Origin: Syntrophales bacterium
GTDB lineage: Bacteria > Desulfobacterota > Syntrophia > Syntrophales > PHBD01
Reading direction: 5' to 3'
Assembly: GCA_963668175.1 (NCBI GenBank)
Contig: OY764159.1
Span: 3,456,001 to 3,520,000, forward strand
DNA length: 64,000 nucleotides
In this document: positions 39,001 through 45,000 of the stretch, piece after piece
Layout: the number at the start of each line of letters is the position of its first letter
Numbering within the stretch: position 1 is the first letter of the stretch
Made by a program: the position numbers

Positions 39001-42000
39001 CGAAAGGATCATCGTCGCCGAAAATCCGCAGTTGATCGGGGCCATCGGGGCCGCCCTATATGCAACGGTATATTCAAAGGAAATGGAAGAAAAAGCATGA
39101 AAACGAGGATTACAGAGCTTTTCGGCGTAAAATATCCCATCCTTCTGTCGGGTATGAGTTGGATCAGCACACCCGCCATGGTCGCCGCCGTGTCGAACGC
39201 CGGCGGTCTCGGCATCCTCGCCACGGGGTATTTCAGCCCGGAAGAGACGAGGAAGGCCGTCCGGGAAACCAGAAGCCTGACGGACAAGCCTTTCGGGGCC
39301 AATGCCTCCCTGATTCTTCCCCATGCCCTGGAAAGTGCAAGGGTCCTTCTCGAGGAAAAAGTTCCCGTGATCAATTTTTCCCTCGGCAAGGGCGACTGGA
39401 TCGTCAGAGGCGCCCATGAATACGGCGGCAAGGTCGTCGCCACGGTGGTCAATCATACCCATGCCAAAAGAGCCCAGGATTACGGCTGCGACGGCGTCAT
39501 CGTAACGGGGCACGAGGCGGCGGCCCACGGCGGGGATGTGGCGACGTTCGTGCTCGTTCCCGGCATCACCGGCAAGATTTCCATCCCCGTCATCGTTGCG
39601 GGCGGCATTGCCGACGGCAGAGGCCTCGCGGCCGCCCTGGCCCTGGGCGCGGAAGGCGTCGCCATGGGCACCCGTTTCATGACGACTAGGGAAAGTCCCC
39701 TGCACGATCTATCCAAGAAACTGGCCCTCGAAAAGAGCATTTACGATACGGTCTATTCGGACCGCATCGACGGCATGGGAACGCGGGTCCTCGACACGCA
39801 GTCGGCCCGGCAGGCCATTGCCCGGGGGTTCAGCGTCTTTTCCGCATTCACCAGCGCTGTGAAAATAACGAGGGAGATGAAACTGTCGTTTTCAAAGGAG
39901 TTGTTCGGGGTTCTCTCCCAGGGCATCAAGAAATCCATTCAGCTCGCCCACCTGGCGGCAGGCGGCGAAGCCTACGAGCGTTCCATGTTCGGGGACTTCG
40001 ACAAGGGGATTCTTCTCGCGGGACAGGCCGTCGGCTTGATCGAAGACCTGCCGTCCGTCGACGACCTGATCAAAACGATGGTTGCGGAAGCGAAGGACAT
40101 TCAAACGAGGATGGGCAGACAACTGGCAGACGTGTAATCACATCAGCGCGGGCGGATATCGACATAAAGGATGGGTCGCTCCAGTTACCAGGCCGGCAAT
40201 ATACATAGCGGCGGCTCATTCTATTTCATCAGCAAAGGAGTAGAACGAGACTATGAAAATCAATACAATAGGAGTAATCGGGGCGGGGAACATGGGGCGT
40301 CAGATCGCCCTGCAGTGCGCCCTGTCGGGTTTCGAGGTTTACTGCACGGACACGATCGCCGTTGTTCTGCAAAGCGCCGAGGCCTTTTCGCGCAAGTGGC
40401 TCGCCGACCGCGTCGCCAAGGGCAAGATGGCCGAGGATGAGGCCAAAACGGTAAGCGCCCGCCTGCACTACACGGCCGAGCTGGCCGAGGCCGCCAAGGG
40501 CGCAGACCTCATCATCGAAGCCATCATCGAGATATTGGAAACGAAGCGGGCGCTCTTCAAAGAGCTGGACAAGCTCTGTCCGGCCCACACGATCCTTGCG
40601 ACCAACAGCTCGTACATCGTGAGTTCCAGGATCGCCGACGCCACGAAACGGCCCGACAAGGTCCTGAACATGCACTTCTTCAACCCGGCCCTCGTCATGA
40701 AGCTCGTCGAGGTCGTCCAGGGTCCCCACGTCTCCGACGAAACCGTCGAGACGGTCATCGAAGTCAGCAAGGCGTTGGGCAAGGTGCCCACCAGGGTGAA
40801 CAAGGAGATCTACGGCTTCATCTGCAACCGGATGTTCAGCGCCATCACGAAGGAGGCCTGCTACCTCCTGGATCTGGGCATCGCCTCCATCGAGGACATC
40901 GACAACGCCGCGAAGAACGGCCTGGGGCATCCGATGGGTCCCCTGCAGCTCCTCGACATGACGGGGATCGACCTCGAATACTACGTCTCCATGGAACGTT
41001 ACCAGGAGACGCGGAACCTCGCCGACAAGCCGAGTCCCGGCCTCGTGGAGCGTTACGCCCGGGGCGACTACGGCAGGAAGACGGGCAAGGGATTCTACGA
41101 TTACACGAAGAAGTGAGGCGGCGACGTTTTCCGGAAAGGATAGAGACATGAATTACGAAAACATTCAGTTCGCGGTGAGCGGGGCGACGGCCGTTTTAAT
41201 GCTGAACCGTCCGAAGGCGATGAACGCCCTGAACCGCGCGCTTGTGGACGAACTGGACCATGCCGTGGACCGGATCGCGAACGACCCGTCCATCGCGGCG
41301 GTTGTCCTCTCGGGCGAGAAGAACTTCGCGGCGGGGGCGGACATCACGTCGATGGTGGAGATGGACCCGGAAGCGGCGAAGGCGTTTGCCTTCACGCCGA
41401 CGTATCAGAAGATCGAAGAGCTGGCAAAGCCGACGATTGCCGCGATATCGGGCTTTGCCCTGGGAGGCGGCCTGGAGCTGGCCCTGGCGTGCGACATCCG
41501 GATCGCCGGTCCCGATGCGAAGCTTGCCTTCCCCGAGATCAATATAGGGATATTCCCCGGCGCCGGGGGGACGCAGCGTCTGCCCCGGCTGGTGGGACCC
41601 GCCCGGGCAAAGGAGCTGATCTTCCTGGGGACGACGCTCGACGCCCAGAAGGCGCTCGAATACGGTCTCGTGAACAGCATCGCGGACGATCCGCTGGACG
41701 CGGCCATGAAGATGGCGTTGAAGCTGGCGGGGAAGCCCGCCGTGGCCCTGGCGCGCGCGAAGGAATGCATCAACATCGCCTCGGAGTCGGGCCTTAAGGC
41801 GGGACTGAAAGCCGAGGCGGAGAAATGGGGCAGCCTCTTTACGACGGCGGACCAGAAGGAAGGCATGCGGGCCTTCCTGGAGAAGAGGAAACCGGTCTAC
41901 AAGGGTCAATGATTGGAAAGGAGCATCTATGAGAGAAGTGGTCATTATCGGCGGTGCGAGAACCGCCATTGGAAACTATATGGGATCGCTGGCGGGGTTC

Positions 42001-45000
42001 AACTCCGTCGCGCTGGGCATCTTTGCGCTGAAAGGCGCCCTTGAGAAGACGGGGGTGGCCATGGGCGACCTGGAGTGCCTCGTTGCTGGTCACGTGAACC
42101 AGGCGGGTGCGCCGGGGAACTCGGCCAGACACATCGCCATGCGGGCGGGCCTGCCGATTACGTCATACGCCTACACGGTGCACCAGCAGTGCGCATCGTC
42201 CATGCGTGCGGCGGAGTGCCTGTCCCAGGACATCATGCTGGGGAAGTACGACGTGGGCGTCGTGGTGGGCATCGAGTCCATGAGCACGGCGCCGTATCTC
42301 CTGATGGGCGCCCGGAAGGGATACCGCCTCGGGGATGCGGAAAAGGTGCAGGACAGCCTCATGATCGGGGGCCTGGTCGACGATCTTCTGGGTTATCACA
42401 TGGGGATCACGGCGGAGAACATCGCGGCCGATTACGGGATCACGCGTGAAGAGCAGGACGAGTTTGCCCTCATGAGCAACATGCGGGCGTGCAAGGCCAT
42501 CCAGAAGGGCTGGTTCAAGGACGAGATCGTCCCGGTGGAGATCAAGACGAGGAAAGGGACGACGGTATTCGATACGGACGAGCATCCGCAGGCGAACACG
42601 TCGATGGAGGCGTTGGCGAAGCTGAAGCCCGCCTTCAAGAAGGACGGGACGGTGACGGCGGGGAACGCCTCCGGACTGAACGACGCGGGATCGGCCCTGA
42701 TCGTGATGTCGGCGGAAGCGGCGAAGGCGAAGGGCTTCAAGCCTGTCGCCAGGGTCGTCGCCTCCTCCCCCGGTTCGGTGGAGCCCCGGATCATGGGCAT
42801 GGGTGTGGTTCCCGCGGTGCGTAACGCCCTGAAGTTCGCGGGGCTTTCGCAGGACCAGATCGATTACTGGGAGCTGAACGAGGCGTTTGCGGCGCAGGTT
42901 TTGGGAGTGAACCGCGAGCTGAAGATCGGCCTGGACCGTGTGAATGCCGTGGGGTCCGGTATCGGCCTGGGGCATCCGGTGGGTGCGACGGGCGCGCGTC
43001 TCATCATCACCATGATCAACGAGATGAAGCGCCGGGGCGTGAGATACGGCTGCGCCTCCCTGTGCGCAAGCGGCGGACCCGCCCATGCGTTTATCGTCGA
43101 ATCCATCTAACCGAAACCAGGAGGCACGATATGGCACTCAAGACGCCTGAAGAGTACGAAGCAAGTCTGCGTAAAATGAACATGAAGATATACCTGATGG
43201 GCGAACGGGTGAAGGACCCGGTGGATCATCCCATCATCCGGCCTTCGATGAACTCCGTGAAGAAGACCTACGAGCTGGCCCTGGACCCGTCCTGCGAGGA
43301 CCTGATGACGGCGACGTCGTCGCTGACGGGGAAGAAGATCAACCGGTTCTGCCATCTGCACCAGAACACGGACGACCTGATCAGGAAGGTGAAGATGCAG
43401 CGTCTGCTGGGCCAGCAGACGGCGGCGTGCTTCCAGCGGTGCGTCGGCATGGACGCGATCAACGCCGTGGACTCGACAACCTTCGAAATGGACCAGAAGC
43501 TGGGTACGGAATACCACAAGCGCTTCCGGAACTTTCTCCTCAGGATGCAGGAGGAGGACTGGACGGTGGACGGCGCCATGACGGACGTGAAGGGCGACCG
43601 CGGTCTGGCTCCGCACCAGCAGGCGGACCCGGACCTCTTTGTCCGCGTCGTCGAGAAGAACGACAGGGGGATCGTGGTGCGCGGGGCGAAGGCGCACCAG
43701 ACGGGTGCGGTGAACTCGCACTGGGTTCTCGTGATGCCGACGATCGCCATGGGGAAGGACGATGCGGACTATGCGGTGGCGTTTGTCGCCCCGGCGGACG
43801 CGGAGGGCATCTTCTACATCTACGGGCGGCAGTCCTGCGATACGCGGAAGCTGGAAGGCGGGACGATCGACGTGGGCAACGCGACCTACGGGGGTCACGA
43901 GGCGCTGATCGTCTTCGAGGACGTGTTCGTTCCTTGGGAGAACGTGCTCATGTGCGGGGAGTGGCAGTACAGCGGGCTGCTGGTGGAGCGATTCGCCGGT
44001 TATCACCGTCAGAGCTACGGGGGCTGCAAGGTCGGCGTGGGCGATGTTTTGATCGGGGCGGCGGCTGTTGCTGCGGACTACAACGGAGCGGCGAAGGCGT
44101 CGCATGTGAAGGACAAGCTGATCGAGATGATGCACCTGAACGAGACGCTGTATTCTTGCGGGATCGCCTGTTCGTCGCAGGGGAGCAGGACGGCGTCGGG
44201 GACGTACCTGATCGACCTGTTGCTGGCGAACGTGTGCAAACAGAACGTGACGCGCTACCCGTACGAGATTGCGCGCCTGGCGCAGGACATTGCGGGTGGC
44301 CTCATGGTGACGATGGCATCCGAGCGCGACCTGAAGCACCCGGAGATCGGGAAGGTGCTGGAGAAGTACATGAAGGGCAACGCAAGCGTGCCGGTGGAGA
44401 ACCGCTGCCGGATGATGCGCCTGGTGGAGAACCTGACGCTGGGCACGGCGGCGGTGGGCTATCTGACGGAATCGATGCACGGGGCGGGTTCGCCTCAGGC
44501 GCAGCGGATCATGATCGCCCGCCAGGGCAACCTGGAACACAAGAAGAAGCTCGCCGAGAAGATCGCCGGGGTCAAGGAATAGATCAGACAGCGGGTTCCG
44601 ACGCCTCAATGGCCCTGCCTGCCTCCTTGCCGCGGCTGCTGAGCGTCTTGGAACGTTGGATTTTTTTTCTTGCCTGTCGAAGCACGACAGGTTCCTCCTA
44701 TCTACAAAGGGGCCGGCCCCAAGCCGGCCCCTTCTCTTCTCTCAGCAGCACACGAACTCCGATGATTTCCCCAAGGTAATCGGCATAGGTTCTGGAGATA
44801 ACGTTATTCATTATACGATGAACCATTGATCGCCGTTTACATGTCTACGGCTAAGCTCATTTGCTTGTCGCTTGGCGGCGAGAAGAACTCGACCACCGGA
44901 AACAGCGTGGTCGAACAACCCTCCGTCACGCTGTTTACGGATAATATCCATCGTATCTTTTTGGACGTATTTTTACGGTATCTCAATATCCAACCACTAA

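What a model noticed while it worked through the whole genome (the two positions that open the first line are those of the whole stretch)
40235..44583. A 4.3-kb 4-hydroxybutyryl-CoA 'lower pathway' cassette kept in four ~98%-identical copies under different upper pathways [...]
The four-gene block 3-hydroxybutyryl-CoA dehydrogenase / enoyl-CoA hydratase / thiolase / 4-hydroxybutyryl-CoA dehydratase (AbfD) occurs in several forms. It is complete twice (g03159-62, g03210-13; 98.0% DNA identity over 4335 bp), split once by five inserted genes (g01612-14 + g01620), and present once as abfD alone (g01679). This gives four AbfD proteins that are 99-100% identical. Two more are 81-90% identical, and four are distant paralogs, of which two are 100% identical inside a duplicated 3.5-kb block (g02873-75 = g03474-76). 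Boldest reading: 4-hydroxybutyryl-CoA is the metabolic hub, and the radical dehydratase step is supplied as a copy-and-paste cassette plugged beneath several su [...]
Evidence so far: Self-megablast: 3496235-3500569 against 3556318-3560652 is 97.97% identical over 4335 bp. 1757729-1760605 matches both at 97.6-98.0% over 2879 bp. The abfD copies are 97.4-98.1% identical. 3170400-3173857 against 3854505-3857962 is 99.3% identical over 3458 bp. Proteins: identity matrix of the 10 HpaB-family genes. The best Swiss-Prot hit, AbfD, is 66-69% identical for six of them and 37-39% for four. Contexts differ: TRAP transporter, CoA-transferase and HGD-D dehydratase; GntR and ABC importer; PAS regulator, MFS and ACAD. 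Two copies end modules of the tRNA-Lys array. K-mer depth of contig sets of two runs of one sample: single-copy parts 13-18 and 42-50; the three-gene block 34-49 and 87- [...]
(Added by a program. Inside this text positions count along the whole contig: contig position 3,456,001 is position 1 of the stretch shown here. "Call 12" and the like, gene names such as g00115 and contig names such as C1 are that model's own, and its searches are not shown. The text may have been shortened before it was handed on; [...] marks where a part breaks off. The agent that wrote the report below was given it as the finding of a first reader that could run no searches.)

Follow-up and report, generated by a model that had tools for sequence, protein, structure and literature searches.

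The report
Four near-identical hydroxybutyryl-CoA breakdown cassettes
An uncultured Syntrophus-like bacterium carries the same short set of genes for turning 4-hydroxybutyryl-CoA into acetyl-CoA in four almost identical copies, each without its own promoter and attached to a different nutrient-uptake operon, and the copies keep swapping sequence with one another.

Summary
The four genes hbd-ech-thl-abfD (window 40235-44583) recur at 97.4-98.1% DNA identity. There is a second full copy, a third copy in two pieces, and a lone abfD.

The copies appear to be genuine:
- The contigs of two runs from one sample show about 2-3x depth over the three-gene block and about 3-7x over abfD.
- A 6.9-kb contig bridges the left junction.

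Differences between copies are nearly all synonymous (dN/dS 0.00-0.33, 0.01-0.06 for abfD). They are also mosaic. The 21 informative abfD sites split 11/8/2 over the three possible groupings. Differences in the three-gene block come in patches. The copies therefore exchange sequence by gene conversion rather than simply ageing apart.

Homology begins at the ribosome-binding site and ends at the stop codon, so each copy depends on its host operon's promoter. Other Syntrophales genomes carry the upper modules of contexts A, C and D without the cassette. One carries an ortholog of context B with it.

"Plugged beneath different upper pathways" is supported. "4-hydroxybutyryl-CoA is the hub" is not shown. 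This is a new variant of a known kind, and the scan had not noted it on other DNA.

The parts
29641..31089 (+). PAS-LuxR (GerE) regulator at the head of operon A
   Evidence: Pfam PAS_3/PAS/GerE. It is 53% identical to the PAS-LuxR regulator of operon C.
31355..34377 (+). TRAP transporter DctP (31355-32428), DctQ (32447-33082), DctM (33073-34377)
   Evidence: Pfam DctP/DctQ/DctM. Orthologs at 69-83% occur in the same order in G137 and G140.
34362..35780 (+). Family-I CoA-transferase (AbfT / butyryl-CoA:acetate type)
   Evidence: Pfam AcetylCoA_hydro/AcetylCoA_hyd_C. NCBIfam TIGR03948 scores 560 bits, below its 674.8 cut-off.
35777..37102 (+). 2-hydroxyacyl-CoA dehydratase alpha subunit (HadB-like)
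   Evidence: Pfam HGD-D. NCBIfam HadB scores 544 bits, below its 750 cut-off. It overlaps the CoA-transferase gene by 4 nt.
37099..38232 (+). 2-hydroxyacyl-CoA dehydratase beta subunit (HadC-like)
   Evidence: Pfam HGD-D. NCBIfam HadC scores 483 bits, below its 700 cut-off. The ATG at 37099 overlaps the HadB-like stop.
38312..39100 (+). ATP-dependent activator of the dehydratase (BcrAD_BadFG family)
Evidence: Pfam PF01869, 234 bits, E 2.3e-69.
39097..40137 (+). FabK-like FMN enoyl reductase (NMO family)
   Evidence: Pfam NMO. NCBIfam FabK scores 244 bits, below its 453 cut-off. Relatives match only residues about 135-483 of the long ORF. The ATG at 39097 overlaps the activator stop. It is not found beside the G137/G140 orthologous modules.
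40235..40252 (+). Left edge of the repeat: ribosome-binding site AAGGAG and spacer. The sequence upstream is unrelated among copies A, B and C.
   Evidence: Three-way alignment. An X5 contig from another sample also stops matching the window here.
40253..41116 (+). hbd, 3-hydroxybutyryl-CoA dehydrogenase
   Evidence: Pfam 3HCDH_N + 3HCDH. It is 98.6-99.0% identical in protein to copies B and C.
41148..41912 (+). ech, crotonase-type enoyl-CoA hydratase
   Evidence: Pfam ECH_1. It is 100% identical to copy B and 98.4% to copy C.
41929..43110 (+). thl, acetyl-CoA C-acyltransferase (thiolase)
   Evidence: Pfam Thiolase_N/C. NCBIfam TIGR01930 scores 419.5 bits, above its 240.55 cut-off.
43131..44582 (+). 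abfD, 4-hydroxybutyryl-CoA dehydratase / vinylacetyl-CoA isomerase (483 aa). The true start is the ATG at 43131 after AGGAGG, not the GTG at 43062.
   Evidence: Pfam HpaB_N + HpaB. PDB 1U8V matches at E 4.8e-218 and 6VJR at 1e-197. The Cys-Cys-His-Cys cluster ligands are conserved. Start site.
44707..44733 (+). Terminator-like hairpin (11 pairs, 9 G-C) 125 nt after the abfD stop: end of operon A
   Evidence: It is the strongest stem in 29000-46500, but the total number of such sites (20) is close to the shuffle mean (16.4).
16562..18013 (-). abfD-E, an 83%-identical paralog at the end of an IclR / LIV-type ABC / 2-oxoacid:ferredoxin oxidoreductase-like operon
   Evidence: In the AbfD tree it falls in a different clade from copies A-D.

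Best explanation
The block hbd-ech-thl-abfD is a promoter-less 'lower pathway' module. It converts 4-hydroxybutyryl-CoA (or vinylacetyl-CoA) to crotonyl-CoA (AbfD), then to 3-hydroxybutyryl-CoA (Ech), acetoacetyl-CoA (Hbd) and two acetyl-CoA (Thl).

In this Syntrophales genome it sits inside four differently regulated catabolic operons:
- whole in A and B
- as hbd-ech-thl plus a separate abfD in C
- as abfD alone in D

Each copy is therefore transcribed only when its host operon is induced.

Operon B is probably the original home, because another Syntrophaceae species has the same arrangement. The other copies were added to upper modules that exist without the cassette in other species.

The copies stay 97-98% identical for two reasons. 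They exchange short tracts by homologous recombination (gene conversion), and all of them are under strong purifying selection.

Shown here:
- the copies and their edges
- the enzyme families
- the selection pattern
- the mosaic pattern
- the comparative absence or presence in other genomes

Inferred:
- the enzyme substrates
- dependence on the host promoter
- the direction of spread
- independent regulation, rather than dosage, as the benefit
For: **Copies and edges**
- Homology starts at the AAGGAG box 16-18 nt before the hbd ATG in A, B and C. Upstream sequence is unrelated. Homology ends at the abfD stop.
- The lone abfD copies begin to match 3-11 nt before the ATG.

**Real multi-copy state**
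- Depth is 18-20 / 34-41 on the flanks, about 35 / about 95 on the three-gene block, and 42-88 / 164-250 on abfD (runs X1 / X2).
- A 6880-nt contig covers 38600-40279 without a difference, bridging the left junction.

**Enzyme identity**
- Pfam. Thiolase is above its NCBIfam cut-off.
- AbfD matches 1U8V at E 4.8e-218 and keeps C99, C103, H292, Y296 and C299.

**Selection**
- dN/dS is 0.00-0.33 over all 15 pairs (0.01-0.06 for the six abfD pairs), and dS is 0.02-0.13.
- 68 abfD sites vary, nearly all at third codon positions.

**Exchange between copies**
- The 21 informative abfD sites split AC|BD 11, AD|BC 8, AB|CD 2, so any tree needs at least 10 homoplasies.
- A no-recombination simulation gives means of 1.0-3.1. 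It reached 10 in 0 of 20,000 runs at 480 or 250 effective sites, and in 0.075% of runs at 150.
- In the three-gene block, 36 of 60 neighbouring variable sites belong to the same copy (0 of 20,000 permutations reach this). 24 of 60 gaps are 12 nt or less (p = 0.0004).
- Divergent patches sit at the edges: the first ~48 nt of B's hbd, the last 13 nt of B's abfD, and C's ech end plus the ech-thl spacer.

**Separate history from the hosts**
- A-versus-C regulator and CoA-transferase are 52-53% identical, against 98-99% for cassette proteins.
- Cassette GC3 is 0.84-0.88. Thirteen of the 14 neighbours lie at 0.64-0.79, and DctM, at 0.81, is the highest.

**Comparative evidence**
- G137 and G140 have DctPQM-CoA-transferase-HadB-HadC-activator at 62-83% identity in the same order. 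No FabK-like gene or cassette lies within about 10 kb.
- G085 has SBP-ABC-ACAD(87%)-GldA(66%) without abfD.
- Three g7 genomes have ACAD(68%)-CoA-transferase(63-65%)-ABC without cassette genes, two of them preceded by a PAS-LuxR gene; the third contig ends at the ACAD gene.
- L087 has J-like(87%)-SDR-hbd(87%)-ech(81%)-thl(88%)-abfD(80%), an ortholog of operon B.
- The A-D clade (support 100) nests in a 22-row Syntrophales clade (support 98). 16 of its 18 other members have thl next to abfD.
- No other genome examined has two abfD copies closer than 83-86% to the query: 40 relatives and 5 further genomes, two of them complete chromosomes.
Against: - No substrate or activity was measured. Hbd and Ech score below the NCBIfam equivalog cut-offs (261.9 vs 408; 270.5 vs 394), so their chain-length preference is open.
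- The spatial clustering of the three abfD site groupings is not significant (11 of 20 adjacent pairs alike, p = 0.105).
- The mosaic pattern could partly come from recombination with alleles of other strains rather than between the copies of one chromosome.
- L087's abfD falls in the E/F clade, not with A-D. The 'B is the source' story therefore needs an abfD replacement in one lineage.
- The promoter and terminator scans are within chance, so dependence on the host promoter rests on anatomy only.
- The depth evidence comes from what is probably the source sample. It is summed contig depth, not a copy number.
- Only the left junction of copy A was seen bridged. The right-hand contig reaches 30 nt into the repeat, one short of the tool's 31-nt rule.
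Confidence: 0.65

Rival explanations
1. Independent horizontal arrival. Whole operons or islands that already contained the cassette genes were acquired separately from closely related strains. The 2% divergence then reflects divergence between donors, not exchange inside this chromosome.
For: - Copies C and D are the last genes of two att-bounded modules in a tandem array at tRNA-Lys.
- The abfD-F locus lies near tRNA-Arg, two integrase genes and an IS copy.
- Cassette GC3 differs from that of its host genes.
- A second sample (X5) holds a B-like variant about 96% identical with the same edges.
- Mostly synonymous differences are also what orthologs from sister strains show.
Against: - Copies A and B have no att repeat nearby. 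The tRNA-Lys search found none near 3.49-3.56 Mb.
- Separate arrival does not explain why hosts as different as operons A, B and C share the same left edge to within 2 nt.
- It also does not explain the three incompatible site groupings among the four abfD copies, unless the donors themselves recombined.
- None of the 45 other genomes checked has a cassette closer than 86%.
Confidence: 0.2
2. Simple recent duplication for dosage. The block was amplified a few times because more enzyme is useful, and the copies have since diverged by point mutation without further exchange.
For: - Identity is high.
- All copies are intact and under purifying selection.
- The genome holds other near-identical beta-oxidation duplicates: a pair at about 95% (3769715 vs 4028197) and a 3.46-kb pair at 99.3%.
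Against: - The copies are not tandem. They are embedded, promoter-less, in four operons with different regulators and transporters.
- At least 10 of the 21 informative abfD sites conflict with any single tree.
- Differences in the three-gene block are patchy.
- The edges coincide with gene boundaries rather than arbitrary breakpoints.
Confidence: 0.08
3. Assembly artefact. A single cassette, or strain variants of it, was placed several times in a metagenome-derived single-contig assembly.
For: - The organism is uncultured.
- The depth evidence comes from what is probably the source sample.
- No long read spanning a copy was examined here.
- A raw-read run with the same species label (X11) laid nothing.
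Against: - Depth over the block is 2-3x and over abfD 3-7x that of the flanks in two runs. An artificially repeated single-copy region would show 1x.
- A 6.9-kb contig runs from unique sequence 45 nt into the repeat.
- The copies differ at 2% of sites in a pattern shaped by selection.
- Each copy forms an uninterrupted operon with its own neighbours.
- An independent sample holds a B-type variant with B's own edges.
Confidence: 0.04

Closest known systems
4-aminobutyrate / 4-hydroxybutyrate fermentation genes of Clostridium aminobutyricum (abfD, abfT, abfH). AbfD structure 1U8V. Gene names are recalled; the structure match comes.
   Same: - AbfD is a full-length match (E 4.8e-218) with the same Cys-Cys-His-Cys ligand positions.
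- The separate F locus of this genome has the same trio: Fe-alcohol dehydrogenase, AbfD and an AbfT-like CoA-transferase.
- Operon C pairs AbfD with an AbfT-like transferase.
   Different: - The cassette couples AbfD to hbd-ech-thl rather than to the activating enzymes.
- It occurs four times.
- It sits under transport and regulator sets that have nothing to do with 4-aminobutyrate, including a 2-hydroxyacyl-CoA dehydratase system.
Second half of the archaeal 3-hydroxypropionate/4-hydroxybutyrate and dicarboxylate/4-hydroxybutyrate cycles: 4-hydroxybutyryl-CoA to two acetyl-CoA. The pathway is recalled. The Nitrosopumilus-type enzyme 6VJR matched.
   Same: The same four reactions in the same chemical order: AbfD, crotonyl-CoA hydratase, 3-hydroxybutyryl-CoA dehydrogenase, thiolase.
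   Different: Here the setting is catabolic and bacterial, with separate hydratase and dehydrogenase genes. The genes are packed as one block and reiterated. Nothing suggests CO2 fixation.
Dispersed near-identical paralogs kept alike by gene conversion in bacteria: tufA/tufB of Salmonella and the reiterated nifH of Rhizobium etli. Recalled; no paper on these was read here. The search returned mainly rRNA-operon papers (listing only).
   Same: - Copies at distant loci are nearly identical.
- Identity stops at the edges of the coding region.
- Site patterns are mosaic.
- Purifying selection acts on the copies.
   Different: - The unit here is a 4.3-kb four-gene catabolic block, sometimes only part of it.
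- It is embedded in operons of different function.
- Identity is 97-98%, not about 100%, so exchange is slower or more recent.
Duplicated lower-pathway (for example meta-cleavage or chlorocatechol) operons under different upper pathways in aerobic aromatic degraders such as TOL-type plasmids and Cupriavidus tfd modules. Recalled.
   Same: The same logic applies: one funnel pathway is supplied more than once, each copy tied to a different upper pathway and regulator.
   Different: - Those modules usually carry their own promoter and regulator and lie on plasmids or transposons.
- Their copies are usually much more diverged.
- Here the unit is promoter-less, chromosomal, anaerobic, and involves a radical Fe-S flavoenzyme.

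Membership tests
AbfD (4-hydroxybutyryl-CoA dehydratase / vinylacetyl-CoA delta-isomerase) | HpaB-type two-domain fold over the full length | tested here: met
   Pfam HpaB_N 339 bits and HpaB 252 bits. 480 residues align to 1U8V at E 4.8e-218, and to 6VJR at E 1e-197.
AbfD (4-hydroxybutyryl-CoA dehydratase / vinylacetyl-CoA delta-isomerase) | [4Fe-4S] ligands Cys99, Cys103, His292 and Cys299, plus Tyr296 (1U8V numbering). The role of these residues is recalled from the structure paper, not read here. | tested here: met
   The positions were counted on the 1U8V alignment. The four ligands are conserved in all 10 HpaB-family paralogs. Tyr296 is conserved in 9 of 10 (G has Cys). 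The oxygenase members of the family score far lower (E 1e-37 or worse).
AbfD (4-hydroxybutyryl-CoA dehydratase / vinylacetyl-CoA delta-isomerase) | Dehydration of 4-hydroxybutyryl-CoA to crotonyl-CoA in vitro | not testable with these tools
   This needs an anaerobic enzyme assay.
Short-chain beta-oxidation trio (crotonase, 3-hydroxybutyryl-CoA dehydrogenase, acetoacetyl-CoA thiolase) | Family domains present and complete | tested here: met
   ECH_1 215.7 bits, 3HCDH_N + 3HCDH 195 + 98 bits, Thiolase_N/C 282 + 132 bits. TIGR01930 scores 419.5, above its 240.55 cut-off.
Short-chain beta-oxidation trio (crotonase, 3-hydroxybutyryl-CoA dehydrogenase, acetoacetyl-CoA thiolase) | Specificity for C4 substrates (equivalog-level match) | tested here: inconclusive
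   The best NCBIfam rows are named 3-hydroxybutyryl-CoA dehydrogenase (261.9 vs cut-off 408) and short-chain-enoyl-CoA hydratase (270.5 vs 394). Both are below their cut-offs.
Integron gene cassette | A recombination site (attC-like repeat) at the cassette end and an IntI-type integrase nearby | tested here: not met
   No shared sequence lies outside the coding block at either end in A, B or C. The six PF00589 matches in the genome are all far from the four copies.
tRNA-targeted integrative island | Direct repeat of the tRNA 3' half at the far end of the inserted DNA | tested here: met
   This applies to copies C and D only. Five repeats of the tRNA-Lys(CTT) 3' half share an upstream non-tRNA motif of about 16 nt. 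Two of them lie 274 and 240 nt after the abfD stops. There are none near copies A and B.
tRNA-targeted integrative island | Cognate integrase inside the island | tested here: not met
   There is no PF00589 match between 1.75 and 1.84 Mb. No recombinase domain was found among the ORFs scanned there: 32 ORFs of modules 4-5 and the ORFs of loci L002-L004. Short or miscalled genes could have been missed.
Concerted-evolution multigene family (gene conversion between dispersed paralogs) | Site patterns incompatible with any single tree, and differences arriving in tracts | tested here: met
   The site split is 11/8/2, with at least 10 homoplasies against 1-3 expected. Runs and clumping tests on the three-gene block give p < 5e-5 and p = 0.0004. 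The adjacency test on abfD alone is not significant (p = 0.105).
2-hydroxyacyl-CoA dehydratase system (upper module of operon A) | Two HGD-D subunits plus a BcrAD_BadFG activator ATPase | tested here: met
   HGD-D appears twice and the activator scores 234 bits. The best NCBIfam names are HadB and HadC, but both are below their cut-offs (544 vs 750; 483 vs 700). The substrate is therefore open.

The most novel reading that the evidence does not exclude
This chromosome assembles catabolic operons from interchangeable parts by two routes working together.
1. Operon-sized modules, each a regulator plus one pathway, are stacked by site-specific integration at tRNA-Lys. Five att-bounded modules span about 81 kb, with no integrase left.
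2. A promoter-less AbfD lower-pathway block serves as the shared terminal part. Homologous recombination copies it between modules and keeps it uniform.

Within this scheme, operon A would encode an undescribed, redox-neutral fermentation that uses two different radical dehydratases in series:
- a 2-hydroxyacyl-CoA dehydratase
- then a FabK-like enoyl-CoA reductase
- then AbfD

One candidate substrate is a 2,4-dihydroxy C4 acid converted to two acetyl-CoA. No paper listed mentions that substrate or 4-hydroxycrotonyl-CoA.
Probability: 0.12. Interest if true: 0.75.

Novelty: new variant of a known kind. Interest (0 to 1): 0.45.

Why it matters
The finding shows how a slow-growing, uncultured syntroph can widen its diet. 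It does not evolve each pathway end to end. It reuses one tested funnel (4-hydroxybutyryl-CoA or crotonyl-CoA to acetyl-CoA) under several substrate-specific front ends, and recombination between the copies keeps the funnel uniform.

For genome evolution, it is a clear bacterial case of concerted evolution in a multi-gene catabolic block, not in rRNA, tuf or nif genes. It comes with comparative 'before' states in related genomes.

For anaerobic biochemistry, it points to testable unknowns:
- what the TRAP / 2-hydroxyacyl-CoA dehydratase / FabK-like module feeds into AbfD
- what the three other AbfD-like subfamilies do (G; H/I; J), all of which keep the Fe-S ligands

For metagenomics, it is a warning. 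Short-read bins will collapse such repeats and under-count these genes.

Tried and rejected
- **Expression.** No RNA holder was listed for window 38600-46400, so nothing can be said on expression.
- **X11.** These raw reads carry the same species label, but nothing laid on the window. This is no test.
- **Polarising the divergent edge patches with L087.** L087 is only about 78% identical in DNA and sits equally far from A and B in nearly every 60-nt window, so it was uninformative.
- **Adjacency test of the three abfD site groupings.** 11 of 20 pairs were alike, p = 0.105. This is not significant. The conflict count, not the clustering, carries the abfD argument.
- **Promoter and terminator scans.** 11 promoter-like sites against 8.0 expected, and 20 terminator-like sites against 16.4 expected. 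This is within chance. Only the hairpin at 44707-44733 is cited, and only as a lead.
- **Integron-like or other site-specific cassette.** No repeat was found at the block ends, so this was rejected.
- **Donor role of E and F.** Many minority alleles equal E or F. This is expected at third codon positions, and I did not test it.
- **Gene calling.**
  - My first gene call by ORF length picked antisense ORFs in the GC-rich cassette.
  - A codon-score caller missed the HadC-like gene.
  - I resolved both by scanning the union of the two calls with Pfam.
  - The long FabK-like and HadC-like ORFs were shortened after relatives and NCBIfam matched only their C-terminal parts.
- **Literature.**
  - (AbfD with Syntrophales names): none of the 15 listed papers holds the enzyme term.
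  - (AbfD, paralogs, multiple copies): 3 papers, none on this. Listings only.
  - (gene conversion, paralogous operons): mainly rRNA operons. Listing only.
  - (the two dehydratase families together with dihydroxybutyrate or 4-hydroxycrotonyl-CoA): no listed paper holds the last two terms.
  - No paper was opened.
- **Earlier scan notes.** AbfD operons were noted in other genomes, but no multi-copy cassette.

Full report
**What is there.**

Window 40253-44582 (+) holds four genes:
- hbd (40253-41116; 3HCDH_N/3HCDH)
- ech (41148-41912; ECH_1)
- thl (41929-43110; thiolase)
- abfD (43131-44582; HpaB_N/HpaB)

The abfD start is the ATG at 43131 behind AGGAGG, not the GTG at 43062. AbfD matches the solved C. 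aminobutyricum enzyme 1U8V at E 4.8e-218 over 480 residues, and the Nitrosopumilus-type enzyme 6VJR at E 1e-197. It keeps Cys99, Cys103, His292, Tyr296 and Cys299 of 1U8V. That these residues hold the Fe-S cluster is recalled, not read here.

Read as a pathway, the block takes 4-hydroxybutyryl-CoA (or vinylacetyl-CoA) through crotonyl-CoA, 3-hydroxybutyryl-CoA and acetoacetyl-CoA to two acetyl-CoA. The thiolase passes its NCBIfam cut-off. Hbd and Ech get the expected names but score below their cut-offs.

**The repeat is real.**

The whole genome is one contig of 4,567,304 bp without N. The block recurs as follows:
- B at 3556318-3560652: 97.97% over 4335 bp.
- C1 at 1757729-1760605: hbd-ech-thl, 97.6-98.0% over 2879 bp.
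- C2 at 1765673-1767128 and D at 1831562-1833025: abfD only, 97.4-98.1%.

A-B is the longest near-identical repeat in the genome.

I laid the contigs of public runs on window 38600-46400:
- In X1 and X2 (one sample, probably the source), summed depth is 18-20 and 34-41 on the flanks.
- It is about 35 and about 95 on the three-gene block.
- It is 42-88 and 164-250 on abfD.
- A 6880-nt contig runs without a difference from 38600 to 40279, which is 45 nt into the repeat.
- The right-hand contig starts at 44554, 30 nt inside the repeat.
- A third run from another sample (X5) holds a variant about 96% identical. It carries B's letters at 40273-40300 and stops matching exactly at 40235 and 44569, which are B's own edges.

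An artificially duplicated single-copy region would show flank-level depth, so I regard an assembly artefact as unlikely. No long read was examined.

**How the copies differ.**

All copies are intact. Across the 15 gene-by-gene pairs, dS is 0.02-0.13 and dN/dS is 0.00-0.33. For the six abfD pairs dN/dS is 0.01-0.06.

Of 68 variable abfD sites, nearly all are third codon positions. The pattern is not tree-like:
- The 21 informative sites support AC|BD 11 times, AD|BC 8 times and AB|CD twice.
- At least 10 sites therefore conflict with any tree.
- A deliberately generous no-recombination simulation gave means of 1.0, 1.9 and 3.1 conflicts at 480, 250 and 150 effective sites.
- It reached 10 conflicts in 0, 0 and 0.075% of 20,000 runs.
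- The groupings are not significantly clustered along abfD (p = 0.105).

In the three-gene block, the 61 core variable sites come in runs that belong to one copy. 36 of 60 neighbours are alike, and 0 of 20,000 permutations reach that. The sites are also clumped: 24 of 60 gaps are 12 nt or less, p = 0.0004.

Divergence is concentrated at the edges:
- eight differences in the first ~48 nt of B's hbd
- nine in the last 13 nt of B's abfD
- a divergent patch with an indel over C's ech stop and the ech-thl spacer

These features point to exchange of short tracts between the copies, or with close alleles, that leaves unconverted remnants at the ends. They do not fit a single paste followed by clock-like decay.

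**Edges and dependence on the host operon.**

In A, B and C, similarity begins at the AAGGAG box 16-18 nt before the hbd ATG. The 60 nt upstream are unrelated among the three. The lone abfD copies begin to match 3-11 nt before their ATG, and all copies end at or just before the stop. C2 and D share a further 19 nt after the stop and then diverge.

The unit therefore carries a ribosome-binding site but no promoter region of its own. No repeated site marks its ends, which rules out an integron-type cassette. In A, a strong hairpin follows at 44707-44733 (the scan totals are within chance). In B, the operon continues into a family-III CoA-transferase 22 nt later.

I infer that each copy is expressed only with its host operon. 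This gives a reason for several copies other than dosage.

**The four hosts.**

A (window, all on the + strand):
- PAS-LuxR regulator
- TRAP DctPQM
- family-I CoA-transferase
- HadB-like and HadC-like dehydratase subunits
- a FabK-like FMN reductase
- then the cassette

CoA-transferase/HadB, HadB/HadC and activator/FabK each overlap by 4 nt.

B: GntR, LIV-type ABC importer, the distant AbfD-like J, the cassette, family-III CoA-transferase, SDR.

C: PAS-LuxR, hbd-ech-thl, ACAD, AbfT-like CoA-transferase, MFS, an unknown gene, Usp, abfD.

D: LIV-type ABC importer, ACAD, a different crotonase, GldA-like dehydrogenase, abfD.

Homologous host genes are old paralogs. The A and C regulators are 53% identical, the A and C CoA-transferases 52%, and the C and D ACADs 46%. 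Cassette proteins, by contrast, are 98-100% identical. Cassette GC3 is 0.84-0.88, the 90th-98th percentile of 2651 genes. Thirteen of the 14 neighbours lie at 0.64-0.79, and DctM, at 0.81, is the highest. High GC3 could reflect high expression, biased gene conversion or foreign origin, and I cannot tell which.

**Comparison with other genomes.**

The organism belongs to the Syntrophales. The nearest AbfD homologs come from Syntrophaceae and Smithellaceae MAGs, and an earlier scan note calls it Syntrophus-like.

- No other genome examined has several near-identical copies. The 40 relatives have at most one abfD at 79-82%. Five further genomes, two of them complete chromosomes, have one at 83-86% or two at about 80%. 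Short-read bins may collapse such repeats.
- In an 86-row AbfD tree (quick method, SH-aLRT only), A-D form a clade (support 100) on a long stem. This clade lies inside a 22-row Syntrophales clade (support 98). 16 of its 18 other members have thl immediately upstream of abfD. E and F fall in another clade.
- L087, from an uncultured Syntrophaceae bacterium, has J-like (87%), SDR, hbd (87%), ech (81%), thl (88%) and abfD (80%, cut by the contig end). This is an ortholog of operon B, so the four-gene order predates this genome. However, L087's abfD belongs to the E/F clade.
- Of 201 genomes of the order, two (G137, G140) have close HadB-like orthologs (77-78%). Both carry DctPQM-CoA-transferase-HadB-HadC-activator in the same order at 62-83% identity. 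Neither has a FabK-like gene or any cassette gene within about 10 kb.
- G085 has the D-type importer, ACAD (87%) and GldA (66%) without abfD.
- Three g7 genomes have ACAD (68%)-CoA-transferase (63-65%)-ABC without hbd, ech, thl or abfD. Two of them have a PAS-LuxR gene (47-48%) just upstream; the third contig ends at the ACAD gene.
- L044 and L062 have thl-ACAD-abfD, with an ACAD 82-84% identical to that of operon C.

In three of the four contexts, then, the front end exists elsewhere without the cassette. For copy C, both 'cassette split by an insertion' and 'two parts added around an existing core' remain possible.

**What remains open.**

The substrates are unknown. Operon C and the F locus (Fe-ADH, AbfD, AbfT-like) look like direct 4-hydroxybutyrate users.

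Operon A contains a complete 2-hydroxyacyl-CoA dehydratase. A plain 2-hydroxy acid would yield a 2-enoyl-CoA, which needs ech-hbd-thl but not AbfD. AbfD and the FabK-like reductase would both be needed only if the substrate also carries a 4-hydroxyl. One example is a 2,4-dihydroxy C4 acid, which would be redox-neutral to two acetate. That is speculation. No paper listed mentions it.

'4-hydroxybutyryl-CoA as the hub' is therefore plausible but unproven, and crotonyl-CoA fits as well.

**Verdict.**

The thing is a reiterated, promoter-less lower-pathway module that evolves in concert. This is a new variant of known kinds: duplicated lower pathways, and gene-conversion families such as tuf and nifH (both recalled).

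My searches found nothing in print on multi-copy abfD in these bacteria (listings only). The scan had not noted it on other DNA.

Noticed in passing
outside the window: genome 1752425-1833304 (loci L002, L003, L108-L110, L004): tRNA-Lys(CTT) is followed by five direct repeats of its 3' half, each preceded by the same non-tRNA motif of about 16 nt. They cut about 81 kb into five modules, each consisting of one or more regulators plus catabolic operons. Contents include beta-oxidation sets, a 2-oxoacid dehydrogenase complex with lipoate genes, 2-oxoacid:ferredoxin oxidoreductases and ABC importers. No tyrosine integrase or other recombinase domain was found there. It looks like a tandem stack of integrated catabolic islands that have lost their integrase.
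   Followed up: partly
window about 6000-16000: A low-GC stretch (0.41-0.47 against 0.56 for the genome) holds a Rep3-type plasmid initiator (13717-14721), a BrnT toxin (15617-15931), a SET-domain protein (11685-12377) and several ORFs without family. It is probably an integrated plasmid-like element. It abuts the abfD-E operon.
   Followed up: no
window 16562-29624 (-): abfD-E ends an operon that contains an IclR regulator, a LIV-type ABC importer, 2-oxoacid:ferredoxin oxidoreductase beta and gamma subunits, and a GltD-like Fe-S flavoprotein. A similar oxidoreductase plus GltD-like set recurs in module 5 of the tRNA-Lys array (L110:1759-6002). Two ORFs in the window operon (19258-19986 and 22725-23606) have no Pfam family.
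   Followed up: no
window 24158-24240 (-): ARAGORN calls an 83-nt tRNA-Val(CAC) inside an ABC ATPase ORF (23713-24477). A normal tRNA-Val(CAC) exists elsewhere in the genome (980481-980555). The call in the window is probably spurious.
   Followed up: no
L001:8503-10095 (J), genome 3172436-3173851 (H), 3856541-3857953 (I), 3827313-3828758 (G): Four distant AbfD-like proteins (38-42% identical to AbfD) keep all four Fe-S ligand positions, so they are probably radical dehydratases rather than oxygenases. J sits directly upstream of cassette B, and its 87% ortholog sits in the same place in L087. Their substrates are unknown.
   Followed up: partly
outside the window: genome 3769715-3771798 vs 4028197-4033251: A second pair of beta-oxidation genes (an hbd paralog and its neighbour) is duplicated at about 95% DNA identity. 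Near-identical duplication of catabolic genes is therefore not limited to the AbfD cassette.
   Followed up: no
outside the window: genome 522722-545800 (L005): The canonical Fe-ADH - abfD-F - NifU-like - AbfT-like locus lies 10-20 kb from tRNA-Arg(CCT), two PF00589 integrase genes (527073, 534345) and one copy of the 1.33-kb IS (525253). It may itself sit on an island.
   Followed up: no
window 44826-48738: Downstream of operon A, on the opposite strand, lie an SDR (45047-45835), a small ABM-domain protein (45940-46236) and a 769-aa carboxylesterase-family protein (46429-48738). A further hbd/thiolase pair follows (48764-51215).
   Followed up: no
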